From Octopus vulgaris (Eukaryota), in the NCBI GenBank assembly GCA_951406725.2, contig OX597833.1, forward strand, positions 70,742,001-70,806,000: 64,000 nt of DNA, given 5' to 3'. Made by a program: the position numbers and the translations under genes. This document shows, piece by piece, positions 1-64,000 of the stretch. How positions within the stretch are numbered: position 1 is the first letter of the stretch; every line of letters starts with the position of its first letter. The notes beneath the pieces are model-generated. The model had not been told where the DNA came from. It ran no database searches and worked only from the letters and a program-made list of their open reading frames with translations.

Positions 1-467
1 ATTTTCTTTTCTATGACTGGGTGCTATTGCAGTTGCTAACCCTCGCTTATTTTCAAGCCAAGGTGACATTTCTCGATGGCCAGACATGTCTTCACAGGGG
101 ATTAGAGACTCAAATGGCACCACTTGTGCGACAGTGGAACTCGTTTACAATTACCATGTGATGTCAAGACATGGAGACACGAATAAGCAGACACACACAA
201 TGGGCTTCTTTCAGTTTCCATCTACCAAATCCACTCACTAGGCTTTTGCTTGTCCACAGCACTTTGGGCAAGTTTAGAAGCAGTAGCTGGGACAGAACCT
301 GAAACCACAAGGTTGAGAAAAAACACCTCTTAATCACATGGCCATTCTTGTACCTAATACATCATTTGAATCAAATAATTCCTTCAGACTATTTGGTTGG
401 ACGTATTGGAATCATCATCATCATCATCATTGGAATATTTCAAATAAAATGTTTTAAAGTGAAGTTT

Positions 468-712
468 GGCATGTAAAAAGCACCAACTGATCGTGGCCAC
501 TGCCAGCCTTCCCTGGCACCTGTGCCGGAGGCATGTAAAAAACACCCACTACACTCACGGAGTGGTTGGCGTTAGGAAGAGCATCCAGCTGTAGAAACTG
601 TGCCAGATCAGACTGGAGCCTGGTGCAGCCTCCTGGCTTGCCAGACCCCAGTCGAACCGTCCAACCCGTGCTAGTACGGAAAACGGACATTAAACGATGA
701 TGATGATGATGA
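468..712 (+). mobile_element. Repeat family C (RTE-related body, (GAT)n tail)
   Basis: GGTTGGCGTTAGGAAG(G/A)GCATCCAGCTGTAGAAA ... TTAAACGATGATGAT. Many copies. Confidence 0.85.
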
Positions 713-4839: not shown

Positions 4840-5158
4840 CCTGTACCGGTGGTACGTAAAAAGCACCATCCGAAAGTGGCCGATGCCAGTGCTGCCTTGA
4901 TTGGCTTCTGTGCCAGTGGCACGTAAAAAGCACCAACCGATCATGGCCACTGCCAGCCTCCCTTGGCATCTGTGCTGGTGGCATGTAAAAAGTACCCACT
5001 ACACTCATGGAGTGGTTGGTGTTAGGAAGGGCATCCAGCTGTAGAAACTCTACCAGATCAGACTGGAGCCTGGTGCCGCCTCCTGGCTTCCCAGACCCTG
5101 GTCGAACCGTCCAACCTGTACTAGCACGGAAAACAGACGTTAAACAATGATGATGATT
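4840..5158 (+). mobile_element. Repeat family C
   Basis: Subunits plus tail. Confidence 0.85.
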
Positions 5159-5244
5159 ATGCCATGTGATCCCAGCCACTGGGCTTGAACAAAACCCACA
5201 GGATTATAGAAAACAAGCACAATGTCAGGTTGATCTGTTTGACC

Positions 5245-8102: not shown

Positions 8103-8568
8103 ACGTGTGTGTGTGTTTTATAATACTGTCCATTCCATGTCCATTGGCAAACGTGGTACCAGCTGGTTTATTGGTTTGCTAGTCACGGTTGTCCTGCTTA
8201 ATAAACCATTATTCATTCCTGATGAATATTTATCAGTAACTGGGTCCGACACCTCGTTTTAGTTAAGCAAAGACATTTCATGCCCTGGCTTTCCTGCTGA
8301 ATGGAAAACATTCACACGGAGAGAAAGAAACGGAAATTGTCAGCCTTGAAGAAAGCAATTACAGTTATTTTGGAGAATTTTTTTGGAAGCTTTTCTATCA
8401 ATTTCCAATTTTGATATTCACCTCGTGATTGCTTCTTGCATATCATGAGTACTATATGCTGTTGTTGTTGTTGGTGGTGGTGTTGGCCAAAGGCATTCCA
8501 TTAGTGACCAACCTGTCTTTTTAGCAGGGGGTTTCTAATATTACTTTATTATTTTAAACCTTTCATTA

Positions 8569-8947
8569 GGCGCAGGAGTGGCTGTGTGGTAAGTAGCCTG
8601 TCTACCAACAACATGGTTCCGGGTTCAGTCCCACCTTGGGCAAGTGTCTTCTACTATAGCCTCGGGCCGACCAAAGCCTTGTGAGTGGATTTGATAGACG
8701 GAAACTGAAAGAAGCCCGTCGTATATATATATATATATGTTTGTCCCCCTAGCATTGGTTGACAACCGATGCTGGTGTGTTTATGTCCCCATCACTTAGC
8801 GGTTCAGCAAAAGAGACCGATAGAATAAGTACTGGGCTTACAAAAGAATAAGTTCTGGGGTCGAGTTGCTCGATTAAAGGCGGTGCTCCAGCATGGCCGC
8901 AGTCAAATGACTGAAACAAGTAAAAGAGTAAAAAGAGTAAAAGAGTA
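8569..8947 (+). mobile_element. tRNA-derived SINE family A (CORE-like segment, internal (TA)n, TAAAAGAG tail)
   Basis: A box TGGCTGTGTGG, B box GGTTCAGTCCC, CCTTGGGCAAGT segment. More than 10 copies in the window. Confidence 0.9.
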
Positions 8948-10791: not shown

Positions 10792-11210
10792 GTGAGTTGC
10801 TAATTTCTCACCAGACTACACTAATTGGATATGTACTCATGGTCGACACCATTTCTGGCTGATCACTTTCTAGATTATCTTCACTTATTTTCCGTTCTTC
10901 TTCTTTTTCTTCTTTGTATTATTATTATTATTATTTTTTTCATTATTATTATTATTATTATTATTTCTTTTATTATTTATATCTTATTTTTTTTCTTTTC
11001 ATTTCTTTGAACACTTTGTTCTCTTCCTCTCCGTCTTCCTGTCTTCTCCCCTTTTTTTATTTCTTGGCAGTGGGGTTAACTACCTGTAGATTCATTTCAT
11101 TTAGGGGTTTGAAGTTTTGTAAAGGTTTTAAAGTTTCAGGATCAAGCTGAGGGGTTAGGATTTAAGGATAGGACATGAGATGGCTATGGTTCAAGGACAG
11201 AAAGGTATTA

Positions 11211-11445
11211 GGCGTCGAGCTAGCAGAATCGTTAGCACACCAGGCGAAATGCGTAGCCGTATTTCGTCTGCCGTTACGTTGTGAGTTCAAATTCCGCCGA
11301 GGTCAACTTTGCCTTTCGTCCTTTCAGGGTCGATAAATTAAGTACCAGTTACGCACTGGGGTCGATATTATCAACTTAATCCATTTGTCTGTCCTTGTTT
11401 GTCCCCTCTGTATGTAGCCCCTTGTGGGTAGTAAAGAAATAGGTA
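11211..11445 (+). mobile_element. tRNA-derived SINE family B (Nin-like central domain)
   Basis: GGCG..GAGCTGGCAGAA-type head, GAGTTCAAATTCC B box and GCCTTTCATCC...GGTCGATAAATTAAGTACCAG-type body. Flanked by AGGTATTA repeats. Confidence 0.85.
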
Positions 11446-11786
11446 TTAGGAGTTGAAATGAAGAAAAAGTTTGGGGGTTAGGGTTTAAAGACAGGAAATT
11501 GTTTAGACTTTGAGGTGAGCTGATGGACTTTGATGGCTGAAAGGAGTTTATGACCTGCTACGAACATAGCGAACCTGCATGGACCGAAGCTTGCAAGAAT
11601 CCTCAACTCTTTGGATAGTCCACTTCTCTGTTTGTCTTGCAATATCTGCCCCCTTCCCCCCTCCTCCCATCTCTTTCTCGTTTCATCTCATTAGAAGTTA
11701 ACGAGATAATTCTGGGTGATTAAGTTTGAAGGAGAGAAAACATTGAATTGCTCCAGTTGGGAGAGTGTTTGAAACTTAAACATCAG

Positions 11787-12105
11787 TATAGTTCTATATT
11801 TAAGAGATGAGGAATTATTTATATTATTTACATTTCACGGATATTTGTCCTCGTCTTTGTTGTTAACACATCGTTTCAGCTGGTATACACTCCAGCCTTC
11901 ATCAGGTGTCTTGGGGAAATTTCGAACCTGAGTTCTCATTCCTAAGGTATTTTTCGATGTTATTATTATTATTATTACCTTAGGAATGAGAACCCAGGTT
12001 CGAAATTTCCCCAAGACACCTGATGAAGGCTGGAAGGTATATCAGCCGAAACGATCTGTAAACAGCAAACAAGATGAGGACAAATATCCGTCAAATGTAA
12101 ATAAC
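11787..12105. mobile_element. Inverted dimer of the same HHR-bearing element, tRNA head absent
   Basis: Arms ~11787-11950 and ~11976-12105 are reverse complements around (TTA)n. CTGATGA at 12020-12026 and GAAA at 12048-12051; mirror core on the minus strand at ~11865-11910. Both arms have GAAACGAT instead of GAAACGTT. Confidence 0.8.
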
Positions 12106-15071: not shown

Positions 15072-15360
15072 TCATCATCATCATCATCGTTTAACGTCCG
15101 TTCTCCATGCTAGCATGGGTTGGACGGTTCGACCGGGGTGTGGGAAGCCAGGAGGCTGCACCAGGTTCCAGTCTGATCTGGCAGTGTTTCTACAGTTGGA
15201 TGCCCTTCCTAACGCTAACCACTCCGTGAGTGTAGTGGGTGCTTTTCAAATGCCATCGGCACAGGTGCCATGGGAGGCTGGCAGCGGCCATGATCGGTTG
15301 GTGCTTTTTACATATCACCAACACGGAAGCCAGTCAAGGCAGCGCTGGCATCGGCCACAT
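15072..15360 (-). mobile_element. Repeat family C
   Basis: Reverse complement, begins with (CAT)n. Confidence 0.85.
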
Positions 15361-19400: not shown

Positions 19401-19957
19401 AAAAAGAAAAGAAAAAATAGGAAATTCATTATTGGGACATCAGAGAAAGCTTCTAACTTAACAAACCCACTTTCAAATATATTCTTTCCATTGCTCCGAC
19501 CCCCCCCCCCCAGCTGTAAATGGACTCTCCCCCCCCCCCCCAATTGGGGGGGGAATTTTAGCCTGCTTGCCTGGCCAGCTGCGTGGCATCGTTCGAAAAC
19601 TAAAACAATGCAAAGTGCATTGTGACTAGTGATGTACAACAACATCTGATATCTAATCTTAACATAACTTTCTAGAATCACATCTGGATATGTAAACCAA
19701 AGAAAGAGTTAGAAATAGCAGTTAAATTTTTTCTAAAATCTCACTCTACCTTCTCTAGTGTCCTTCCCTTTTTTTTTTTTTTTTAATACAGCTGTACATG
19801 AATTGAAGTGGATTCAGCTGCACTTTCTAGTAGCCAGTCAAATACCCATCAAGAGGTGCTCTCGTTGACTTGAAATCTACCGAGTTGATAAAATCTCTGC
19901 AGATTCTTTTCCTCAAAACTAATCTACCTAGAATTGTAGAAATGCTGTAAATATATA

Positions 19958-20122
19958 GGCGCAGGAGTGGCTGTGTGGTAAGTAGCTTGTTTACCAACCA
20001 CATGGTTCCGGGTTCAGTCCCACTGCGTGGCACCTTGGGCAAGTGTCTTCTACTATAGCCCCGGGCCGACCAAAGCCTCGTGAGTGGATTTGGTAGACGG
20101 AAACTGAAAGAAGCCCGTCGTA

Positions 20123-20164
<42 letters not shown>

Positions 20165-20377
20165 TGTGTTTGTGTCTGTGTTTGTCCTCCTAGCATTGCT
20201 TGACAACTGATGCTGGTGTGTTTATGTCCCCGTTACTTAGCATTTCGGCAAAAGAGACCGATAGAATAAGTACTGGGCTTACAAAAGAATAAGTCCCGGG
20301 GTCAAGTTGCTCGATCAAAGGCGGTGCTCCAGCATGGCCGCAGTCAAATGACTGAAACAAGTAAAAGAATAAAAGAA
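19958..20377 (+). mobile_element. SINE family A, full length
   Basis: GGCGCAGGAGTGGCTGTGTGG head through the GAAACAAGTAAAAGA tail. Confidence 0.9.
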
Positions 20378-21157
20378 TATCTCTAAATACCCTTTAGAAC
20401 CAAATAATAAATCTCCAGTGCTGCCTTCAACAAGTAATTCATCTCCATTCTAATAGTTATCATTTAACCCCCAGGTTAATTCCGATCAAGCAGGCATATC
20501 ATCAGAAGACTTTCCAGCTGTGGCCATCTCATTTTTTTCTCCTCAACCATAATATATCATTGCGTAGGTTGTAGATTGTGTGAGTTAGTGGGTAGTGTTT
20601 AGTTTGTAAGTAGCAGGTAGTGATGTGTGTAGTTGGTTTTAGTCTTGGTTGGTACTAGAATGTGAGGAAACACTACCTTTCATGAGAACCCAGTGCAGCA
20701 AGCTCTGGTTTAGTATCCTGCATAGCCAATCCCAGGCCTTTGTTGAAAAGAAGGAGAGACAGAATGTTGGGCCAGCAACCTTGCCTGCGGGGTTTAACTT
20801 GCTGCAGAGAGGATGAGGTTGTCCAACACTTCACGAGGAGTAGGCGGGACTGGGACTAAGACCCTGGTGTGTCCTTCTCTTTTTAAGAGATGGTAGAGAG
20901 TGATTTCAGGACAATTTGGCCATTGTCCTTCTCTGTTGACAAGGACAGAGAAGAGCCAATGGCCAACCCAACACATTCCAGCAGCAGTTTTAGTTGTTTT
21001 GTGCTGTCTTTGTCTGCTTTATCCCAAACTATCTTCACATTACTAACGTTATCTCTTGCTTCCGTTGCCAATAAAACCGATTCTTTGTAGATTTTGACCA
21101 ATATTCTAACCTTAACCCCTCAAAGTTTTGGCTTCTTTCTTTCTCCCTTTATAACTT

Positions 21158-22720: not shown

Positions 22721-23523
22721 TTATGTTTTAGTTATTTGAATATGTATTTTTACTTAAGAGGAAATTCTGTCCATGTTGTGTGTATATATTATTTATACTA
22801 GAAAAATATTGACAGTGACTTTGAAGTTTTGGCTTAGTTGCCTTCATTAGGTATTGAATGATCCTTCAATTAATGTTTGGCTATTTGTGTGTGTGTATGT
22901 GTAATAATTAATCAAATGTCAGTGATTGATAAAATATTTATTTCAGCTGTTTCATAATCTGCATCCAATTACATCATTGTCTCAGGTTACGAAACAGCTG
23001 TTAACATATAAGAATGAACATTTTATCTCTTCCTTCATTTCAATAACATCCGAATCATTCTGCCTCTGCTGCCTCCCACCTACCTCTATTTAACAAATGT
23101 TTTGCTATTGCTATATTTGTCAATGTCCAAAGACTACTCTCCTGGCTTCCTGCTGTCCTTTTTTCTTTTTTTTTTTAATCTGCAACAACATTGATGCTGA
23201 AATGCATTTTATTTCTCATTAAATTTCATTGGTCAGTTCCGTCTGCTCTTCTTTCTTCCTCTGCTCTGACCACAACTTCACATACACCTTTGTGTTTGCT
23301 CCCTATATAAAGCACCTGTACTGGTGCCACATAAAAAGCTCTCAGTTCACACCCTCTGAAGTGGTTGGCATTAGGAAGGGCATCCAGTCATAGAAGCCAT
23401 GCCAAAGCAGACAATAAATGCCTGGTGCAGCTCTCCAGCCTTGCCAGCTTCTGCCAACCCACGCCTGCACAGAAAACGGACATTCAGTGATGAAGACATG
23501 GACTATTAGCTCTCAAAGAGTAA

Positions 23524-23754
23524 GGCAGCGAGCTGGCAGAATCGTTAGCACGCCGGGCGAAATGCGTAGCCGTATTTCGTCTGCCGTTACGTTCTGAGTT
23601 CAAATTCTGCTGAGGTCGACTTTGCCTTTCATCCTTTCAGGGTCGATAAATTAAGTACCAGTTACGCACTGGGGTCGATGTAATCGACTTAATCCCCATG
23701 TCTGTCCTTGTTTATCCCCTCTGTGTTTAGCCCCTTGTGAGTAGTAAAGAAATA
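23524..23754 (+). mobile_element. SINE family B with 16-bp TSD
   Basis: TATTAGCTCTCAAAGA at 23504-23519 and 23755-23770. Confidence 0.9.
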
Positions 23755-24171
23755 TATTAGCTCTCAAAGAACCCTGAAGAGGGGACAGCAGTAATTAAGT
23801 GTGCTGTGGAACATATTAACAGTACCTTTGAACTAGTTTATAGCCTTAGTCTTCAATTTACAGACAGAGGTCTGTAGAGGCCATGTTGTTTGAACCCCTT
23901 TGATGCCTTCACATATGAGACCACCCCTAATTCTGTCAATACAAAGGGCTCTAAATAGAAATTTTCCATCAAAATTCCTCGTTAATTAATGTTTCTCGAT
24001 ACCAGCTTCACTCTTTCATTACCTCATTTCCCTTAAAATATCCTGCCTTTGTTTCAGGGAATTAATAACCCTTTTTGTTGGTAGGTTTCTGTTGGAAATA
24101 TGCTGCTGTTATTTAAGTTAATTTCTAAAAAATGAATAACTTAGTAAAATAATTTTGTCATTATTAACTAA

Positions 24172-24660
24172 AACGATTCTATATTTAAGAGATGAGGAAT
24201 TATGTACATTGTTTACATTTTACGGATATTTCTCCTCATCTTGTTTGTTGTTAACATAACATTTCAGCTGATATACCCTCCAGCCTTCATCAGGTGTCTT
24301 GGGGAAAGTTTGAGCCTGGGTTCTCATTCCTAAGGTATTTTTCGATGTTATTATTATTATTCAGGTCACTGCCTGGAATAGAACTCGGAATCTTGGGATT
24401 TGTTGCCCACGCTCTTACCACTTCATATATGGCACAGTGGTTAAGAGTGCGGGTTAAATCATGATTCCAAGTTTGATTCCAAGCAGTGACTTGAATAATA
24501 ATAATAATAATAATAACAACAACAACAAAAAATACCTTAAGGATGAAAACCCAGGTTTGAAATTTCCCCCAGACACCTGATGAAGGCTGGAGGGTATATC
24601 AGCCGAAACGTTGTGTTAACAACAAACAAGATGAGGACAAATATCTGTCAAATGTAAATA
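24172..24660. mobile_element. Head-to-head inverted dimer of a tRNA-headed, hammerhead-bearing non-autonomous retroelement
   Basis: Arms of about 240 bp are reverse complements. tRNA-like A/B boxes lie at the centre (24362-24490). 12-bp direct repeat ATTATTAACTAA at 24160-24171 and 24661-24672. Confidence 0.8.
24572..24617 (+). ncRNA. Minimal type I hammerhead ribozyme motif (Penelope-like)
   Basis: GACAC-CTGATGA-A-GGCTG(loop)CAGCC-GAAA-C-GTT-GTGTT. Stem I GACAC/GTGTT, stem II GGCTG/CAGCC, palindromic AACGTT for a dimeric stem III, GUU triplet. Confidence 0.75.
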
Positions 24661-25122
24661 ATTATTAACTAATATTTGGAAGGTTTTAATTTAGATTAGT
24701 GTAAAGCAGGGAATTTGTATCACAGGGCCAGCAGCGTTGGTCTTGAGGTTTGATACCAAAAAAGTTAATAATGATCAAGTTACTTAAATGAATTTTTCGT
24801 TTTATTCCTAAAATTAATTGAAACAAAATCTGTATATCTTAAGCAAAAATATGGTGACAAAAGTGTAAATCCATTTGAGAGAATAACCTGAATAGGAAAG
24901 GGTTGAATCTGAAAATAGCATCGTGTCCATGAGAAAAGTGCTTCCAGTGCCCTGGGCAAAATATTAATGCAATAATTCCTTTAGTCTGGCAATTCTCTCT
25001 GCCATGATAAAACTTACTCAAGCGGATCCAACCATGGCAACTCCACAACAAAGCCTCATGTCATTTGACTTTGGCCTAGTTTCATGTTACCCCACCACCA
25101 CCACACTTCCTTCTCTCTCTTC

Positions 25123-25189
<67 letters not shown>

Positions 25190-25317
25190 CCTCCCTCTCT
25201 CATCGGTTCTGTCTTTATCACAGATTGAACAGACATGATCAAAGGTGTTCCTGCTGTAATCATTCATCTCTCTCCTCCTCCTCCTCTCTCTCTCTCTCAA
25301 ATGTATACTCTCTCTTT

Positions 25318-25732
25318 TCTCTTTTACTCTTTTACTTGTTTCAGTCATTTGACTGCGGCCATGCTGGAGCACCGCCTTTAGTCGAGCAAATCGACCCCGG
25401 GATTTATTCTTTGTAAGCCCAGTACTTATTCTATCGGTCTCTTTTTGCCGAACCGCTAAGTGACGGGGACGTAAACACACCAGCATCGGTTGTCAAGCAA
25501 TGCTAGGGGGACAATCACAGACACACAAACACATACACACACACATATATATATATATATACATATATACGACAGGCTTCTTTCAGTTTCCATCTACCAA
25601 ATCCACTCACAAGGCATTGGTCGGCCCGGGGCTATAGCAGAAGACACTTGCCCAAGATGCCACGCAGTGGGACTGAACCCTGAACCATGTGGTTGGATAG
25701 CAAACTACTTACCACACAGCCACTCCTGCGCC
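25318..25732 (-). mobile_element. SINE family A, full length
   Basis: Reverse complement of family A. Confidence 0.9.
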
Positions 25733-26126
25733 TTCATTCTCCTTCTCTAACTCCCCACTCTCCCCCTTCACACCTCTCATACTGTCATTCTCTTCTCGTG
25801 AAACAGTAAAGCGTGATTTGAAGTAGATTCAGTTGCTGTTTCTAGCAGATCAAACAGCCCTGTAGAGGCTCCCTCTCTGACTCTGTTACCAAATAAAAAG
25901 AGAAGATTGCTGCTGTTTAACCCCAGGCGACATCCCATGACTGCCTTCACAGCATTTAGTGAAGTAAGGAAACAATAGAATAAGTCTCAGGCTTAGAGAA
26001 TAAGTTCTGGGGTTGATTTATTTGATTAAACCCTCTAAGGTGAATATAAAAACAGACATATATATATACTGGGTTATTCTAAAAGAATGAACCAATTTCA
26101 TTATGTAAAATTTTAATCAGCCTCGT

Positions 26127-26326
26127 CTGGCACCTGTGTCGGTGGCACATAAAATCACCCACCACTCTCTCTGAGTGGTTGGCGTTAGGAAGGGCATCCA
26201 GCTGTAGAAACACTGCCAGATCTGACTGGCCTGGTGCAGCCTTCGGGCTTCCCAGACCCCCAGTTGAACCGTCCAACCCATGCTAGCATGGAAAGCGGAC
26301 GTTAAACGATGATGATGATGATGATG
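26127..26326 (+). mobile_element. Repeat family C, short
   Basis: One subunit plus tail. Confidence 0.85.
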
Positions 26327-33212: not shown

Positions 33213-33413
33213 TTCATATATAATATATAAAAGGCAGAGAAGATACCTGAAGTATATATAATTTGTACATTAAATGTGTTGAGTTTTAAATAATGATTCA
33301 TTTAATAAAATGGTTTCAATGTTTTTGTAAATATTTGGTTTGTTTTGTTTTTTCAATTTTTATTTCTTTTGTTGTATTAATTTGTTGTTTTTCTTTTTTC
33401 TTTCTCTTTGTAG

Positions 33414-34758
33414 CATCCAGATAAAGGATGACGACCCTGGGAACTTGAAACACAGCATTGTGCAGACACTGGTGTCTCCGCCGGGAACATTGCCATCGCC
33501 ATCATGCCGCAACCCTTCCAGTCCGCAGAAAACTAGCTTCAACAGGAAATGTAGCCTGATCAAAGAGGAGTTGGGAGATGATGATGGAGCGGCCAGCGGG
33601 GGGAGTGAAGAGGTCGAAGTGAAGGCAACTCGATCAGTTGAAAATTTGTTGGAGTCGAAGAAGAGGAGCGTGGCGTCTGACCCGATTTACCAGATGGACT
33701 CCACGTCTGTTCGTCGAGCCCTACACTCCGTGGCTAGCTCTCCTCAATTACTCAATCAGATCTCAGAAGAAAGGGAATCGGATGAAGAAGAAGAAATATC
33801 CGTGTTGCCTTCGTCTGCCTCCAAGACGCTTCACCGAAGCATGTACAGTTGCCGGCCGAACCTAACCTCTGCCGAGATGCGCAAGTTTGAGCAGCACAAG
33901 AAGCGCAGAGGCACGGGGCAGCGGGGCACGAGTTGCAGCAGTTCCGATGCCAGCGACACAGAGGAGACGGAGAACATTGCTCGCAAGGACAAACTGAAAC
34001 ACAAATTTGCCACTCGTCGAGACAGCAGCGACCATTCTAGCGACAATGACGGGCCGGGGGGCCTCAGTGCGCCATCGGGGGGCAGTCGTTCGGTCGGACG
34101 CAGCAGTAGCAGCAATAGGGGTGAGGGCAAGCAGGGCAGCAAGAGCAGCGACCACCAAGACAAATCGTCTGAAAAGAAAGGTCAGAAGGGGTCGGGTGGA
34201 AAAAGCTCGAGGGCAAACACGACAACCACCAGTTACAGGAGCTGTAGTGATGGCAACACCAGCAGCAGCAGTAGCAGCGGTAGCAGCAGCAGCACCAAAC
34301 CACAGTCTTGTCATTTGAACGGGGCAACAGGGTGCTGTTCCCAGTTAATTGAAAACTTGTGTGAAACAAAGCAGACGGGGCATAATTTTTCGAAATTGTG
34401 TCTTGAAGATAAGCAGAGCCTTCTGGAGCAGGACGGCAAAAGGGCCAAACCCAATAACCAAAAGGACTTGGACGTGAATTTGTTGAACAAACTCAACTCC
34501 CACATTTGGGAAGTGAAGTCCCGTAACAATAGTGACTACAAAGAGATCAAGCAGTCGGCTAAGATAACCCCGGATGAAATCTTGTCGATGTGCTCTTCGG
34601 ACTGTAACTTGCATATACGGAAGGGGAAGAGGTTCGGACGACGGATCAAGACCGATATCAATCGGAACGGCCTGAAGCCGAGCATGTGTAAGCTATCGAG
34701 TTCTTCCAAGACTAGCCATTCTATAAAACTAGAGACAAAATGTTGCTCACTTGTGTAA
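33414..34758 (+). CDS. SNRK: Terminal coding exon of an SNF-related serine/threonine kinase (C-terminal regulatory region; kinase exons not seen in the window)
   Basis: Only long GC-rich non-repetitive ORF. Polypyrimidine tract and TAG acceptor at 33411-33413 (phase 2); TAA stop ends at 34758. Motifs RKCSLIKEE, LNQISEERESDEEE, GTSCSSSDASD, RRDSSD and terminal CCSLV follow the order of my recalled human SNRK tail (RKCLFRVEE, LNQIFEEGESDDE, SSCSSSETSD, RRDSSE, CCHVI). Confidence 0.85.
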
Positions 34759-39051: not shown

Positions 39052-40228
39052 TGAGATTTGATTATTTTTTTTGAGATTTAGTTAGGAATTTTTCCTAACT
39101 ATCAATGCTTAATGACTGTCAATCTTACCAATCAAAGCCTCTTTGATTGGTAAGATTGATGTGATTGATGTTCAGTTTAAACTTCTGGAAGTAAATGTCT
39201 ATATGGAAAACACTGGCAAGAAGAGAATTTCAAAGAATTAGCTTTCTGATGTTGGAATGGAAGGGTGGCCAGTGGTCCCTCTTAGCTGAGCCCTTGTACA
39301 TGCAGTACGTGTGTTTTACAACTAGGAATAGGAGCTGTGGAATATGTGCACACAAAATTTTCAATAAATTGAAATTTTTTTTTTTAATTGAAGATTATTT
39401 GGCCTGGCATTTAAGAGTTTATAAAACTAGAACTGCGTTACATGTTAAGTGGCACCAACTTCACAGGACAGTGCCTCTTAGCCATTTCTAAAGAATGAGC
39501 ACATTTTGATGCCAACCCACCTGACACTGGCCCTGGTTCTACGATATCAACTTGCAGTTTTAAAGGGATCTTAGTTGAAACTTTGCATGAAAATTCCATG
39601 TTTTTGTTCCAAAAACCAACTTGATTCTAATGATGGTTATTTTACTAAATTCTTTAATTAATTTCAAAATTAATTAAAACAATGGAAATGTATTTCTACA
39701 GAGATATGGTAATGAAAGGATTAAGGCTTAAATCTGTGGATTTAGAGAATATTAAAATTTTCTTTGTGTGTTGAAGAGAATAAAGTTATTTTAAAAAATG
39801 GATTAATTTTATTCTGGAAAGCATTTTTAATAAAATTTATATACTTTACCCTCTTTATCATCCCACCATCCCTCAAAACACCATTTTGTATCTCCAAGGG
39901 GGTGCGGGCACCCCAAATTGGAAAAGACCCCTGTCATAGAAGATCCTTCATTGTATGTCCTTTATGTGTGTGTGACACACCACCATTGAATCGGTCATCA
40001 ATCATTAATCATTCTAGTTCCTCTACTTTTAAAGTTTGGTTATTTTAGGTTTCAGTTTCTTCTTTTAAAGATCTGCTGAGAGAGTTTGTTGCAGAAGCAG
40101 GAAATATCTTGTTGGATGAAGCGAATGGATCAGTTTTACAGAATTGTCGAGGTTCTCCCTGGTTCTCCTTTGTCTCAGATTGGCCGTTGATGCGGGTTTG
40201 CCTTGCATCGATATTGTTATTCTCTTAA

Positions 40229-40459
40229 GGCGACAAGCTGGCAGAATCGTTAGCACGCCGGGTGAAATGCTTAGCGGTATTTCGTCTGCCATTACGTTCT
40301 GAGTTCAAATTCCGCCGAGGTCGACTTTGCCTTTCATCCTTTCGGGGTTGATAAATTAAGTACCAGTTACGCACTGGGCTCGATATAATCGACTCAATAC
40401 CTATGTCTGTCCTTGTTTGTCCCCTCTGTATGTAGCCCCTTGTGGGTAATAAAGAAATA
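40229..40459 (+). mobile_element. SINE family B with 15-bp TSD
   Basis: GATATTGTTATTCTC at 40210-40224 and 40460-40474. Confidence 0.9.
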
Positions 40460-40480
40460 GATATTGTTATTCTCACTGGG

Positions 40481-40953: not shown

Positions 40954-41157
40954 TCATCATCATCGTTTAACGTCCGCTTTCCATGCTGGCATGGGTTGGA
41001 CGGTTTGACTGAGGGCTGGTGAACCAGGTGGCTGCACCAGGCTCCAATCTTGATCTGGCAGAGTTTCTACAGCTGGATGCCCTAACGTATCCAGCTGTAG
41101 AAACTCTGCCAGATCAAGATTGGAACCTGGTGCAGCCACCTGGTTCGCCAGCCCTCA
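40954..41157 (-). mobile_element. Repeat family C, truncated with a 71-bp fold-back inversion
   Basis: 41010-41080 is inverted at 41087-41157. Confidence 0.9.
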
Positions 41158-41866: not shown

Positions 41867-41997
41867 AAGAATGGCACCCTTAGCACACCATACAAGCAAC
41901 CCTTTGTTGTTACTGGAGCACACACACACACCCCTCATCAATTCACACACTTATCTTTACACACAAACACATACCTTCGTTATATACACACACACAA

Positions 41998-42410
41998 GGC
42001 GGCGAACTGGCAGAATCGTTAGCACGCCGGGCGAAATGCGTAGCTGTATTTCGTCTGCCGTTACGTTCTGAGTTCAAATTCCACCGAGGTCGACTTTGCC
42101 TTTCATCCTTTCGGGGTCGATAAATTAAGTACCAGTTACACACTGGGGTCGATATAATTGACTTAATCCGTTTGTCTGTCCTTGTTTGTCCCCTTTGCGT
42201 TTAGCCCCTTGTGGGGAGTAAAGAAATAGGTATTTCATCTGTCTTTGTGTTCTGAGTTCAAATTCCACCGAGGTCGACTTTGCCTTTCATCCTTTTGTGG
42301 TTGATAAATTAAGTACCAGTTACGCACTGGGGTCGATGTAATCGACTTAATCCATTTGTCTGTCCTTGTTTGTCCCCTCTGTGTTTAGCCCCTTGTGGAT
42401 AGTAAAGAAA
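41998..42410 (+). mobile_element. SINE family B with tandem duplication of its body
   Basis: Full copy to ~42230, then a second headless body at 42231-42410. Confidence 0.85.
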
Positions 42411-42502
42411 TATATATACACACACACATACTTGTCTATCTTTACATTGACACACACATACACATATAATATCTATCATTGCACACATATATATATAACC
42501 TT

Positions 42503-43023: not shown

Positions 43024-43600
43024 GGCAACCAGTTGGTAGAAGGCTGAGCAGCATTTTGTCCGTCTTTACGTTCTGAGTTCAAATCCTGCCTTGGGCGACT
43101 TTGCCTTCCATCCTTTTGGGGTTGGTAAAATAAGGGCCAGTATTTGAGGTCGAGTACCAGTGAAATGCTGGGGTCGATGTAATCAACTTGCCCCACCCTC
43201 GAAATTGCTGGCCTTGTGCCAAAATTTGAAATCATTATTATTGTTCTTAGTATTAAGGTGATGAGCTGGCAGAGTCGTTAGTGCACTGGACGAAATGCTT
43301 AGCAGTATTTCGCCCCTTCGCTATGTTCTGAGTTCAATTTCTGCCAAGGACAACTTTGTCTTTCCATCCTTTTGAGGTCAATAAAATAAGTACCAGTTAC
43401 ACACTGGGGTCGATATAATCAGCTTAACCCCACCCCCAAAATTGTTGTCCTTGTAGCAAAATTTGAAACCATTATTATTATTATTATTCTTTTCTACTCT
43501 AGGCACAAGGCCTGAAATTTTGGGGGAGGGGGCCAGTCAATTAGATTGACCCCAGTACACAACTGGTACTTAATTTATCGACCCCAAAAGGATGAAAGGC
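42745..43600. mobile_element. Cluster of four diverged family B SINEs (three +, one -)
   Basis: Nin-like bodies at ~42745, 43023 and 43256 (+) and 43495-43600 (-), separated by (TTA)n. Further diverged copies at 2471, 12178, 29581, 47838 (+) and 58100, 59150 (-). Confidence 0.75.
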
Positions 43601-43924
43601 ATATCGTTACTATTATTAGGGCAGCTGTTAAAGCTAATTTTTGGTCTTGTATTCTGGTTTTCTTTTTGGGCTTTTTTTTTTGCAATCAACATAAGGGTGC
43701 AAAGCAGTGCTTTTCCACCCTTCATTCCACCAGGGCCAACAAAGTACTTAACTATAGACAATAATGAATTGACTAAAATTAATTTTTCTCATAAAGCTCA
43801 ATCTCATAGCTACAAGTAACAAACCCCCCCACTTCTTTTACTAATAGAATCATTATAGAAATTCCAGTGAGTTCACAGAAACTGGGGGGACACAGGAATC
43901 AATGTCCTAAAATACTTTACTCTA

Positions 43925-44209
43925 TACATTATTTACATTTGACAGGCATATGGCGTAGTAGTTAAGCGCACGGGCTACTAACCCCAAGATTCCAGGTAGT
44001 GACATGAATAATAATAATAATAATAATAACATCGAAAAATACCTTAGGAATGAGAACCCAGGTTCGAAATTTTCCCCAAGACGCCTGATGAAGGCTGGAG
44101 GGTATATATCAGCCGAAATGTTGTGTTAACAACAAGCAAGATGAGGAGAAATATCCGTCAAATGTAAACAGTGTACATAATTCCTCATCTCCTTAATAAT
44201 AGAACTGTA
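43925..44209 (+). mobile_element. Near full-length monomer of the tRNA-headed HHR element with a short inverted 3' remnant at its 5' end
   Basis: tRNA-like head GGCATATGGCGTAGTAGTTAAG at 43945, then (AAT)n, then HHR core CTGATGA 44085-44091 and GAAA 44115-44118. 43925-43943 is an inverted copy of ~44157-44175. Flanks TACTTTACTCT (43913-43923) and TACTTCACTCT (44211-44221). Confidence 0.78.
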
Positions 44210-44584
44210 TTACTTCACTCTGTGTGTGCACATGTTTGTGCGTATGATCTTGTCTTCTTGTATTTTGATTGAAACTAATACAGACTTGTGATTACCTTTA
44301 ATTGTTCCTACATTAATTATATAAATATCCTGTGATATCCACCCCCCCCTTTCTTTCTTCGAAAATTGCCCTTCTTCCCCAGTCAGAATCAACAGTAAAA
44401 TCCAGAATCCAATTAGTATTTATCTGCTGCTGTAGAATTTAATGCATAAAATTTTATCCATAAAAATAAATTACATCCAATATGGCAGACACTTGTCTTC
44501 CTTCATTAAGAAACTGAAGAGGAAAGAAAAAGAAAGAAATGAAATGAGGCCAAAACAGGAATTGTTGAGAATGTTTATTTAGTC

Positions 44585-47832: not shown

Positions 47833-49394
47833 GTCAAGGTGGCAAGCTGGCAGAAATGTTAGCAAGCCGGGTGAAATTCTTGATGGCATTTCGTCTGTGT
47901 TTACGTTCTGAGTTCAAATTCTGCTGAGGTCGACTTTGCCTTTCATCCTTTTGGGGTTGAAAAATTAAGTACCAGTGAAATACTGGAGGTGGGGTCGATG
48001 TAATAGATTCGTCCCCTCCCCCCAAAATGGCTGCCCTTGTGGCAAAAAAGAAATAATAATAATAATTATTATTATTATTATTATTTTTTATTATTATTAT
48101 AGCATCGAAGGTGTTTATAAGCCATTTAAAAACACACACATATATACATACATACATACATACATACACACATACATACACACATGCATACATACATATA
48201 TATATCATGAGCTAACTGTTACTTTCTCAGATGCAGCACAGAATTTTGCCAGTGAACAGGTCGCAGTCTCAAAGGGATGAAAATATTTTGGCAAATTAAA
48301 AATTTAAATGTTGAAGTGAATCTAATGGCTTATAATCACCTTCCATGCTGCAATTTGTTTTTGTTCCAGCACACGATCTCAGATCAGGTCACTTGCTATG
48401 CAAGTACATCTCCATAATATTATTATCTGGGAAAAATTGCTGAAAGAGAGATACAAGAAACAAACTTTTTTGGTTTTTTTATTTGGAGACTTTGGTGACT
48501 GAATTGTAAACACAATATTTAATAATTAATATCAATTAATACTTAATAAACAATATATATATACCCATATATATATAATATATTTCTATATACATAATAT
48601 GTATGTGTGTGTGTGTGTGTATATGTATATATATGTGTATATATATATATATATATTTGTAGTCTACCCTCTTCAGATATATTATTAATTAGGTTCACAT
48701 CCTCAAATGATTTGCTATAAAATCTTAATTATTTTGAGATGAACAATTTTGGAGAGAAGTGATTTTTTTAGAAAAAAAAATATTTTGTGGATTGTAAAAG
48801 AAAATGCAGAAAAAATGTTTTTAATCTCATAAATAAAAAAAAAATAATAATTTCCATTTATTTGGTAAATTGAAACACACTAATTACAACAACAACAACA
48901 AAAATGTTGATTTTTTTTTTTTTGTTTTCATTTCTAATTCTTATTTTTACATATTTATATCATTGTCATTGGTAGAGTACTTGGGTACTCAGGAGTACTC
49001 TGGAGTACTCAGGAGGTAGCAGTGGGTTTTTTTTTTTTTTGTTTTTTTTTTTCATAAAGAAGTACCTACTTGAGTTTCAAGAATGTTCTCCGCCTCCTCC
49101 TCCTCCCCTCTTCCTCCTCCTCCTTCCCCACCCCACCCCATACACCCCCATCCTCTGTGGTAGCCTTAAACAACAACAACAACAACAGCAAAAGATACTC
49201 CTTTATTTATTACTCTTAGATGGTCCTTTTAATAATCTAACTCATGTGTAAACCCCTACAGAAAAAAAAAAGAACCCTTTTGTTTTTGTTTTTTTTTTAA
49301 AGGTTTGTTATTATTAAACTTGTACAGGAGAACTAACTTGGTGTGACTTTGTTATTTTTGCTCATTTTTATTGTTTATTTTCATGTTCTAATAT

Positions 49395-49799
49395 ACTCTT
49401 TTTATACTCTTTTACTCTTTTACTTGTTTCAGTCATTTGACTGCGGCCATGCTGGAGCACCGCCTTTAATCGATCAAATCGACCCCGGGACTTATTCTTT
49501 GTAAGCCCAGTACTTATTCTATCGGTCTCTTTTGCCGAACCGCTAAGTGACGGGGACGTAAACACACCAGCATCGGTTGTCAAGCAATGCTAGGGGGACA
49601 AACACAGACACACACATACATACATATATATACATATATACGACGGGCTTCTTTCAGTTTCCGTCTACCAAATCCACTCACAAGGCTTTGGTCAGCCCGG
49701 AGCTATAGCAGAAGACACTTACCCAAGATGCCACGCAGTGGGACTGAACCCAGAACCATGTGGTTGGTTAGCAAGCTACTTACCACACAGCCACTTCTG
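49395..49799 (-). mobile_element. SINE family A
   Basis: Reverse complement of family A. Confidence 0.9.
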
Positions 49800-63080: not shown

Positions 63081-63397
63081 CTCACCACATAAACTATTTT
63101 TAAAAATATATTTCCCATGTAAATAGGCAATGTGAAATGAAGTGTCTTGCTTAAGAACACAACACATTGCCCAGTCCAGGAACCAAAATCACAATCTTTT
63201 GATCATGAGTCCAACACCTTAACCACTAAACCATGTGCCTCCACACACACAAACACACATATAACACTTTATTTTAGGGGTTAAGGATGCTACCAATAGT
63301 TTTATGCAGAAGGAATTTCAGAATATTTAAGTGATCCCCACTAAAAAACTGTGTAAATTCTCTTCACGTGAAACCATTGGTAGCATTCTTAACTTTA

Positions 63398-63584: not shown

Positions 63585-63756
63585 AAATAAATAATATTGT
63601 AAATAAATAATATTTATTCACCAAGTGCAATGTTGAACACTCATTCTCACTACTCAATGCCATTATATATATGTATATATAATTAGAAATTTAAAAAAGA
63701 TATCAATAAGTACTCCATCTTGTGAGAGATAAATATTATTGATAAACACAATATAC

Positions 63757-63963
63757 ATTTTTATAAGCCACTAATAGTTTCATGCGATGAAAACATCTCA
63801 GACAGCATTTTTCAGATATCTGGTGCCTCCGTGCAATCCTCGGGCTCTGCCCATATGGCATAACAAGCTAATACTGAGGACCTCATGAAGGTAGCAGATA
63901 TGTTAAAGAATGCTGTCTGAGATGTTTTCATATCACATGAAACTATAAGTAGCTCATAAAAAT
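63757..63963. repeat. Fold-back element with ~80-bp imperfect arms
   Basis: ATGAAAACATCTCAGACAGCATT / AATGCTGTCTGAGATGTTTTCAT, with flanking matches. Confidence 0.8.
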
Positions 63964-64000
63964 ATATATATATCACCCATGCCAGCATGGAAAGCAGATG

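What the first reader, a model, noticed from the sequence alone, without database searches (positions are those of the whole stretch)
24160..24672. tRNA-headed, hammerhead-carrying SINE-like element that inserts as inverted dimers (candidate Penelope-mobilised SINE)
Seen: three loci (11787-12105, 24172-24660, 43925-44209) share a ~270-bp unit. It has a tRNA-like head with A box (TGGCNNAGTGG) and B box (consensus GAGTTCGATTCC), an (AAT)n spacer, then a tail with a complete minimal type I hammerhead (GACAC-CTGATGA-A-GGCTG..CAGCC-GAAA-CGTT-GTGTT). There is no poly(A) or simple-repeat tail. Every locus has an inverted copy of the 3' part at its 5' side. Two loci have 11-12-bp TSDs (one perfect, one with a mismatch). 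Established: Penelope-like elements (PLEs) carry minimal dimer-forming HHRs in their pseudo-LTRs and often insert with inverted partial pLTRs, whereas typical SINEs borrow LINE 3' tails. Inference: a Pol III-transcribed non-autonomous element, processed by its own ribozyme and mobilised by a PLE reverse transcriptase/GIY-YIG endonuclease. I cannot confirm it is undescribed.
Basis: partly seen in the sequence, partly recalled or inferred. Interest (0 to 1): 0.9.

Follow-up and report, generated by a model that had tools for sequence, protein, structure and literature searches.

The report
Penelope retrotransposon end with tRNA-like promoter
The short repeat is not a separate SINE but the end repeat of a protein-coding Penelope-type retrotransposon that has captured a tRNA-like promoter sequence, which may let the cell's tRNA-making polymerase transcribe it and would explain why thousands of short back-to-back copies start at the same spot.

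Summary
The repeat is real (8,900 exact hammerhead 18-mers genome-wide, control 0). It is the pseudo-LTR of an autonomous Penelope-like element (PLE) in the same genome. In 17 of 20 reverse-transcriptase-bearing copies that reach the ORF end, the tRNA-like head follows about 26 nt after the stop codon. The same unit also precedes the ORF, and its hammerhead and 'tail' encode the first ~50 codons. Short and long copies share one consensus, so no independent SINE lineage was found. Inverted pairs have one long and one short 3' end (48 of 54) and mostly 11-13-bp TSDs, known PLE hallmarks. What I did not find described: the pLTR starts with a tRNA-derived A/B-box head. 5' ends pile up at its edge (19 of 29 within -8..+7), two ORF-bearing copies start there, and the 2.6-kb consensus has no TTTT (expected 3-5; relatives about 4 per kb). 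Best reading: a captured Pol III promoter marks the transcription start. Rival: a hairpin at that edge causes the pile-up. Pol III use and self-cleavage are untested; RNA reads were uninformative. New variant of a known kind; interest 0.6.

The parts
24160..24171 (.). left target-site duplication (12 bp)
   Evidence: identical to 24661-24672
24172..24346 (-). long arm: pLTR body, decayed hammerhead (core at 24287-24293), and the extra ~30-nt PLE 'tail'; the first ~50 codons of the PLE ORF
   Evidence: 95% to family consensus positions 1-170; translation matches the ORF N-terminus
24359..24422 (-). long arm: tRNA-like head, 5'-clipped at about +13, B box at 24375-24386
   Evidence: 88% to head consensus; alignment
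24424..24431 (.). head-to-head junction, an 8-bp palindrome
   Evidence: sequence
24427..24496 (+). short arm: tRNA-like head with A box 24430-24440 and degenerate B box 24469-24480
   Evidence: 81% to head consensus; consensus head aligns to the genome's own tRNAs, z about 7
24495..24527 (+). (AAT)n/(AAC)n spacer of variable length; 5' UTR of the PLE
24543..24660 (+). start of the PLE ORF (likely ATG at 24543; a stop at codon 6 in this copy), ending at the 'short' 3' site
   Evidence: translation; a homologous N-terminus is present in P0125
24572..24617 (+). minimal type I hammerhead: stem I 24572-24576/24613-24617, CTGATGA 24577-24583, stem II 24585-24589/24600-24604, GAAA 24605-24608, palindromic ACGT in place of stem III, predicted cut after 24612
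   Evidence: motif scan, 0 in 30 shuffles; not detected by Rfam
24661..24672 (.). right target-site duplication
11787..12104 (.). second insertion: long minus arm 11787-11977 plus short plus arm 11976-12104, both headless; no reliable TSD
43913..44221 (.). third insertion: TSD 43913-43923/44211-44221, inverted short-end piece 43925-43943, then head from position -2 (43942), hammerhead core 44085, long end at 44209

Best explanation
[quoted passage not shown] SHOWN: its pLTR is tRNA-like head + (AAT)n + hammerhead-containing ORF start. INFERRED: the head is a captured type-2 (A/B box) Pol III promoter and sets the RNA 5' end at about -6 to -2. The element's protein binds the RNA at the pLTR-ORF junction, nicks both strands of an AT-rich target about 12 bp apart, and primes two cDNAs from two internal start sites about 30 nt apart, one per strand. 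Both run towards the RNA 5' end and are joined at microhomology or at the small palindrome there. Priming at the first junction gives the SINE-like inverted pairs, which stop at the RNA start; priming at the second gives long, randomly truncated copies. Solo pairs lack the ORF sequence beyond the start sites and are probably dead on arrival, by analogy with the anole element PAc. The family looks mostly inactive now (3-4% non-CpG divergence, no intact ORF seen).
For: A degenerate RT motif gave 128 hits, control 0, nearly all with the same sequence, i.e. one family. 17 of 20 such copies that reach the ORF end run into the head. 43 of 59 copies anchored in the 5' ORF run back into the pLTR tail, 11 through the hammerhead. 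The consensus reads as one frame of 827 codons (833 after the junction was refined); RVT_1 passes the Pfam cut-off on two real copies; relatives carry the same Pfam set as other PLE proteins. 3' ends are bimodal (about 139-148 and 166-175) and 48 of 54 classifiable pairs are long+short, p 3e-9. TSD score >=7 in 32 of 49 pairs against 8% in shuffled flank pairs, mode 11-13 bp. In L075, L081, L083, L093 and L098 the ORF-bearing arm ends short while the inverted piece carries the tail, which one fold-back cDNA cannot give. Promoter: 19 of 29 head-anchored arms end within -8..+7 and none beyond -26, whereas 30 arms anchored just upstream end from -40 to beyond -1034, median about -410. Exact 18-mer counts drop from 6,097 (head) to 1,101 (about 65 nt upstream). 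ORF-bearing copies L095/L240 and L262 begin at -2 and +3. No TTTT in 2,628 nt; expected 2.9-5.0 in the ORF, P 0.003-0.03 by null; two other PLE families here have 9 and 8; 33 related ORFs from other organisms have a median of 4.1 per kb, only 1 of 33 has none. The other two PLE families have CCAAT and TATA-like motifs after the ORF and no B box. PAc cleaves and extends both strands and starts at two internal sites (PMC11167929).
Against: An imperfect 14-16-bp hairpin (-13.4 kcal/mol RNA, -7.0 DNA) is centred on the head's 5' edge and could itself cause the pile-up. Only two ORF-bearing copies reach the head's edge. The TTTT test is modest: P 0.03 when codon usage is kept, one relative also has none, and low-T relatives have few. 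An uncapped Pol III RNA is a poor mRNA, so the protein may need a Pol II transcript. Three RNA-seq runs were unstranded, with depth following copy number and no start or end pile-up at the head or ribozyme; head depth was no higher than the ORF end. The same-template test is weak (shared variants 0.107 vs 0.032, max 0.098 in 500 shuffles, but 19 of 36 shared sites come from three loci). The GIY-YIG domain is supported only by a pairwise match (E 3e-7).
Confidence: 0.6

Rival explanations
1. Ordinary PLE debris: the same autonomous element, transcribed by Pol II from an internal promoter. The tRNA-like piece is a passenger (an old SINE or tRNA insertion) and the 5' pile-up comes from the hairpin at its edge, where cDNAs stall, fold back, anneal or are nicked.
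For: Hairpin centred on the breakpoint cluster; several junctions are exact palindromes at its loop. Short inverted hammerhead pairs and solo copies are described as truncated PLEs (PMC4209133). D. virilis Penelope has a LINE-like internal promoter (PMC2377424 abstract).
Against: Many junctions at -4..+7 are not palindromic. A stall would be expected at the 3' foot of the hairpin (about +15), a smaller cluster. It does not explain the missing TTTT, the tRNA-like A/B spacing, or the lack of room for CCAAT/TATA motifs.
Confidence: 0.27
2. One reading: an independent Pol III SINE, derived from the pLTR, that propagates from its own short master copies using the PLE protein in trans.
For: Short copies outnumber long ones about 4-5 to 1. 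A few head-to-tail repeats of the short unit exist (L162/163, L171/172, L167). Short arms are slightly less diverged (median 3.2% vs 3.6%, p 0.04 with the best-hit loci; p 0.28 without). Non-autonomous PLE derivatives are known.
Against: No fixed differences between 38 short and 39 long arms. Short copies lack the ORF sequence past the start sites, which PAc needs for activity. Some short copies carry PLE sequence upstream of the head (L166, L168, L012, L009).
Confidence: 0.1
3. A MITE or fold-back DNA element, with the arms as terminal inverted repeats.
For: Long inverted arms flanked by TSDs.
Against: Unequal arm ends, variable junctions, TSDs of 7-15 bp, and continuity with an RT ORF.
Confidence: 0.02

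Closest known systems
EN+ Penelope-like elements of the Penelope/Poseidon clade (PAc of Anolis, PMC11167929; overview PMC8557442; hammerheads PMC4209133)
   Same: Single ORF with RT and C-terminal GIY-YIG-like domain; pLTRs; minimal hammerhead overlapping the ORF start; inverted 5'-truncated copy; 30-40-bp tail at one end only; AT-rich targets; ends about 120-155 nt into the ORF (PAc starts at 111-118).
   Different: The pLTR begins with a tRNA-derived A/B-box head 26 nt after the stop codon; 5' ends pile up at its edge; no TTTT on the sense strand. Of the related ORFs, the 10 with a hammerhead downstream show no B box before it. Clade placement rests on recalled motifs, not a tree.
Schistosoma Sm-alpha/Sj-alpha SINE-like repeats (as reviewed in PMC6765202, passages)
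   Same: [quoted passage not shown]
   Different: Those are head-to-tail repeats with a self-cleaving hammerhead and no coding partner named in the passages seen; here the unit is the pLTR of an autonomous element and inserts head-to-head.
Non-LTR retrozymes (PMC7229834 passages; bioRxiv 10.64898/2026.07.22.740005, parts 1-3 of 5)
   Same: Short type I hammerhead repeats related to PLE pLTRs and thought to use PLE machinery.
   Different: Defined as tandem arrays; here tandem units are rare, ends match RT start sites rather than the cleavage site, and the passages and parts seen mention no tRNA-derived promoter.
TRIMp3 elements Cassandra, Helenus, Ajax (PMC10886601, passages)
   Same: A small-RNA-derived Pol III promoter captured inside the terminal repeat of a retrotransposon.
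   Different: Those are non-autonomous LTR elements; this is an autonomous, protein-coding PLE.
Octopus tRNA-derived SINEs OK, OR1, OR2 (Ohshima and Okada 1994; paper not held)
   Same: Recalled, not checked: tRNA-Lys/Arg-derived heads and lengths of a few hundred bases.
   Different: OR1 and OR2 are cited as CORE-SINEs; I could not compare sequences, so the short unit may already be catalogued under such a name.

Membership tests
EN+ Penelope-like element | single ORF with PLE-type RT | tested here: met
   one consensus frame of 827-833 codons; RVT_1 over cut-off; relatives share PF26215/PF28514 with other PLE proteins; telomerase RT among weak PDB hits
EN+ Penelope-like element | C-terminal GIY-YIG endonuclease | tested here: inconclusive
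   30% over 84 aa, E 3e-7, to the Pfam-positive domain of P0170; the closest relative P0121 gives no GIY-YIG hit; YKG replaces YIG
EN+ Penelope-like element | direct pseudo-LTRs on both sides of the ORF | tested here: met
   3' side 17 of 20; 5' side 43 of 59; both sides in L078 and L095
EN+ Penelope-like element | minimal hammerhead in the pLTR | tested here: met
EN+ Penelope-like element | inverted 5' copy and 30-40-bp tail at one end | tested here: met
   21 of 29 head-anchored arms have an opposite-strand piece; 48 of 54 pairs long+short
Penelope/Poseidon clade | RT phylogeny with named clade members | not tested
   no clade-labelled reference sequences were available; assignment from recalled RT motifs
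tRNA-derived SINE | tRNA-related head with A and B boxes | tested here: met
   alignment to own tRNAs, z about 7; weak match to an annotated phage tRNA, E 0.05; Rfam and ARAGORN negative
tRNA-derived SINE | transcribed by Pol III | not testable with these tools
   indirect only; RNA reads uninformative
tRNA-derived SINE | non-autonomous lineage separate from its RT partner | tested here: not met
   the unit is part of the partner and codes for its N-terminus; no fixed differences
tRNA-derived SINE | 3' poly(A) or simple-repeat tail, single direct insertion | tested here: not met
non-LTR retrozyme | head-to-tail arrays with a hammerhead in each unit | tested here: not met
   mostly head-to-head pairs; partial tandem units in a few loci
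non-LTR retrozyme | self-cleavage and circular RNA | not testable with these tools
   needs in vitro assay; the catalytic dimer fold (-20.7) is less stable than the best fold (-29.2 kcal/mol)
MITE | fixed termini and fixed TSD length | tested here: not met

The most novel reading that the evidence does not exclude
An autonomous, protein-coding retrotransposon whose whole ~2.9-kb RNA is made by RNA polymerase III from a captured tRNA promoter, with its ORF purged of TTTT terminators, so that one transcript yields both full elements and over ten thousand SINE look-alikes. A dimeric protein primes the two target strands from two fixed sites on that RNA, which would account for the PLE 'tail' and the inverted copies. 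It would also show a route by which a PLE end could become a Schistosoma-type Pol III hammerhead repeat.
Probability: 0.33. Interest if true: 0.85.

Novelty: new variant of a known kind. Interest (0 to 1): 0.6.

Why it matters
If the head is a working Pol III promoter, this is a protein-coding retrotransposon driven by a tRNA promoter, which I did not find in ten full-text searches; the nearest precedents are non-autonomous. It would link PLEs, Pol III hammerhead repeats and TRIMp3-type promoter capture. Separately, the ~300-nt unit is a compact substrate for the open question of how PLEs make inverted copies and one-sided tails: the near-strict long+short pairing gives a direct prediction for the existing in vitro system. 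Practically, these copies would be mislabelled as SINEs or MITEs by pipelines.

Tried and rejected
Rfam scans of the window and three short stretches: no tRNA or hammerhead hit, only hairpin and microsatellite noise. ARAGORN: nothing in the window. First partner hunt by Pfam GIY-YIG found other PLE families that do not share the unit; the only match among those 44 loci was a separate short copy in L070. Their homologs did not help. Sequencing-run search: no RNA holder listed on record. Read lay on L078: unstranded, depth follows copy number, the one start pile-up (6 molecules at 2300 in one run) is not at the head or ribozyme; no evidence for or against a discrete transcript. Hammerhead core positions are no better conserved among copies than flanks, as expected for dead copies. 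Fold-back of one cDNA as the general source of the inverted arm: rejected. Ribozyme-made ends: not supported. An apparent cluster of 5' ends at position 128 is largely an artefact of the 9-bp repeat. First consensus builds had indels and gave truncated frames; only searches are used. Fixed-position sample of 40 stretches (400 kb): 5 held the unit, only 1 clearly two-armed, too few for statistics. Earlier findings of the scan: none returned. OK/OR1/OR2 sequences could not be seen: original paper and one other not held, SINEBase supplements unavailable. The octopus repeat-annotation paper (PMC13282606, parts 1-2 of 3) does not describe this structure; its supplement and library were not read and may hold the family. 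Supplements of the bioRxiv preprint were not seen. Dfam and Repbase were not searchable.

Full report
Setting. The window lies in a 2.8-Gb, 227-contig animal genome rich in microsatellites and SINE-like families. The repeats look cephalopod-like to me (recalled, not tested), so I consulted octopus literature. Coordinates below: 'head' positions count from the first G of the tRNA-like sequence (0); 'body' positions 1-175 run from the end of the (AAT)n spacer to the far 3' end, with the hammerhead core at 54 and the predicted cut after 89.

Observation. The three loci are real and related. The hammerhead pattern occurs twice in the window and never in 30 shuffles. Genome-wide, exact 18-mers from the hammerhead and the head occur 8,900 and 6,097 times, controls 0. 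With exact-match rates of 0.39 and 0.25 among sampled copies this is very roughly 23,000 arms. The consensus head aligns to the genome's own tRNA genes, best to tRNA-Arg (49-51 of 76 nt, z about 7 against shuffles; 33 of 34 fetched loci gave a tRNA call), with Ala and Thr close, so the source tRNA is not fixed.

What it is. A GIY-YIG search found other PLE families that do not share the unit. A degenerate pattern for a recalled Penelope/Poseidon RT motif gave 128 hits, control 0, nearly all the same sequence. Most of the first 30 loci contain the unit. In 17 of the 20 that reach the end of the ORF, the head follows about 26 nt after the stop codon, then (AAT)n, hammerhead and tail. The unit also stands in front of the ORF: of 59 scorable copies among 60 fetched (from 98 hits of a 5' ORF 18-mer), 43 run back into the tail and 11 through the hammerhead. 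The majority consensus is one open frame of 827 codons, 833 after refining the junction, starting 35 nt before the hammerhead core. A relative, P0125, has the same hammerhead-derived N-terminus. RT is confirmed by Pfam on two real copies; the C-terminal domain matches a Pfam-positive GIY-YIG domain only pairwise. No intact ORF was seen in the 30 RT-anchored loci. So the 'SINE' is the pLTR of an autonomous PLE. 38 short arms and 39 long arms share one consensus with no fixed differences and similar age (median non-CpG divergence 3.2% vs 3.6%).

Insertion anatomy. 3' ends are bimodal, at body 139-148 and 166-175, i.e. about 120-129 and 154-156 nt into the ORF. Of 60 adjacent head-to-head pairs (7 duplicate loci dropped first), 48 are long+short, 4 short+short, 2 long+long and 6 have a truncated arm; 48 of 54 gives p 3e-9 against independent choice. 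Some pairs in this automatic count may be unrelated neighbours, and the loci were picked by anchors, not at random. TSDs scoring >=7 flank 32 of 49 long+short pairs against 8% of 291 mismatched flank pairs, mostly 11-13 bp and AT-rich. Inversion is common but not universal: 21 of 29 head-anchored arms, but only 1 of 5 hits in a 400-kb fixed-position sample. These are known PLE features: inverted 5' copy and a 30-40-bp tail at one end (PMC8557442, passages), and short opposite-strand hammerhead pairs (PMC4209133, part 1 and passages). The anole element PAc cleaves and extends both strands, starts at two internal sites that define the tail, needs ORF sequence beyond them, and does not need its ribozyme for insertion in vitro (PMC11167929, parts 1-2 of 4). 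In five loci the ORF-bearing arm ends short while the inverted piece has the tail, which excludes simple fold-back and points to two priming events, one per strand (inference). Whether both use one RNA is weakly supported.

The unusual part. 5' ends of head-anchored arms pile up at the edge of the tRNA-like sequence: 19 of 29 within -8..+7, none beyond -26 (one duplicate locus dropped; by eye, four more scored -11 to -19 look like palindromic junctions over-extended by the aligner). Arms that pass -33 end anywhere from -40 to beyond -1034, median about -410, and the exact-match count falls 5.5-fold across this edge. Two ORF-bearing copies reach the edge from the 5' pLTR and both stop there (-2 in L095/L240, +3 in L262); none of 62 extends further. 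The simplest reading is that the RNA starts there, 9-13 nt before the A box, where a type-2 Pol III promoter would start it (spacing from established knowledge). The sense strand has no TTTT in 2,628 nt. In the ORF, 2.9, 5.0 and 4.4 were expected under three nulls (P 0.03, 0.003, 0.009); two other PLE families here have 9 and 8. Among 79 related loci from metagenome contigs, the 33 with at least 1,500 nt of ORF have a median of 4.1 per kb, 1.7 times the random expectation, and one has none; none of the 10 with a downstream hammerhead shows a B box before it. The other two PLE families carry CCAAT and TATA-like motifs after the ORF instead.

Against. A 14-16-bp imperfect hairpin is centred on the same edge and could produce the pile-up on a Pol II transcript; it may itself be a relic of an inverted junction. 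The TTTT result is modest. Translation of an uncapped RNA is unexplained; ribozyme-linked cap-independent translation is reported for RNA viruses (PMC13725137, abstract only), but here cleavage would remove the likely start codon. RNA-seq reads from three runs map on both strands in step with copy number and show no start at the head, so they neither support nor refute.

Comparison with what is known. It works like, and is a member of, the EN+ PLEs (endonuclease inconclusive; clade by recalled motifs only). It fails SINE membership on independence and tail. A Pol III promoter plus hammerhead is known from Schistosoma repeats (PMC6765202, passages); hammerhead repeats derived from pLTRs are known as retrozymes (bioRxiv 10.64898/2026.07.22.740005, parts 1-3 of 5; PMC7229834, passages); Pol III promoters inside terminal repeats are known in non-autonomous LTR elements (PMC10886601, passages). 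I found no account of a tRNA-derived promoter in the pLTR of an autonomous PLE in ten searches, but subscription journals, Repbase and Dfam were out of reach and the short unit may be catalogued as an octopus SINE (OK/OR1/OR2 sequences not seen). Other papers seen: PMC6962438 (passages), PMC13282606 (parts 1-2 of 3), PMC3531059 (passages and part 2), PMC4824008, PMC4758252, PMC5804259 (passages), PMC2377424 (abstract).

Verdict. Shown (about 0.95): pLTR of an autonomous PLE. Likely (0.6): the tRNA head is a Pol III promoter that sets the RNA start. Possible (0.33): the whole coding RNA is a Pol III product. New variant of a known kind; interest 0.6.

Noticed in passing
window 467-712, 4917-5161, 15072-15313, 26118-26324 and others; 41010-41157: A second abundant short repeat family (about 10 copies) ending in (GAT)n; one copy forms a 148-bp head-to-head palindrome at 41010-41157.
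   Followed up: no
window 11210-11447, 23523-23760, 40228-40465, 41997-42418 and others: Third SINE-like family with a tRNA-like start, about 10 copies, including a tandem pair at 41997-42418 and an inverted pair at 43357-43601.
   Followed up: no
window 25315-25735, 8567-8945, 19951-20380, 49392-49799 and others: Fourth family, about 420 bp, about 10 copies at 83-94% identity, with a tRNA-like start on the minus strand at 25735; possibly a CORE-type SINE (recalled motif, untested).
   Followed up: no
window 63751-63969 and 63280-63393: Two imperfect palindromes (76% over 223 bp; 75% over 117 bp), MITE-like.
   Followed up: no
window 33331-34755 (+): A 475-codon open frame of non-repeat character, probably a host gene exon.
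   Followed up: no
L061-L067: A young PLE family with many intact 781-codon frames (RT + GIY-YIG), a separate upstream frame of up to 479 codons, and a post-ORF region with tandem CCAAT and TGACGT motifs and a TATA-like box; no hammerhead found by my patterns.
   Followed up: partly
L068:1321-4483: Another PLE family whose copy has a 766-bp, 100% identical inverted 5' piece, so very recent, and a hammerhead-like motif with a core variant.
   Followed up: partly
L007, L020, L010, L082, L255, L282: Several copies abut the same unrelated repeat at an (AAT)n run, suggesting insertion preference or recombination at the microsatellite.
   Followed up: no
G000:C18:46257175-46392300: Seven evenly spaced copies of the PLE 5' ORF motif about 17-39 kb apart, likely a segmental tandem array.
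   Followed up: no
L322: A related PLE ORF from another organism with no TTTT in 1,993 nt but no B box before its hammerhead, a counter-example to keep in mind.
   Followed up: partly
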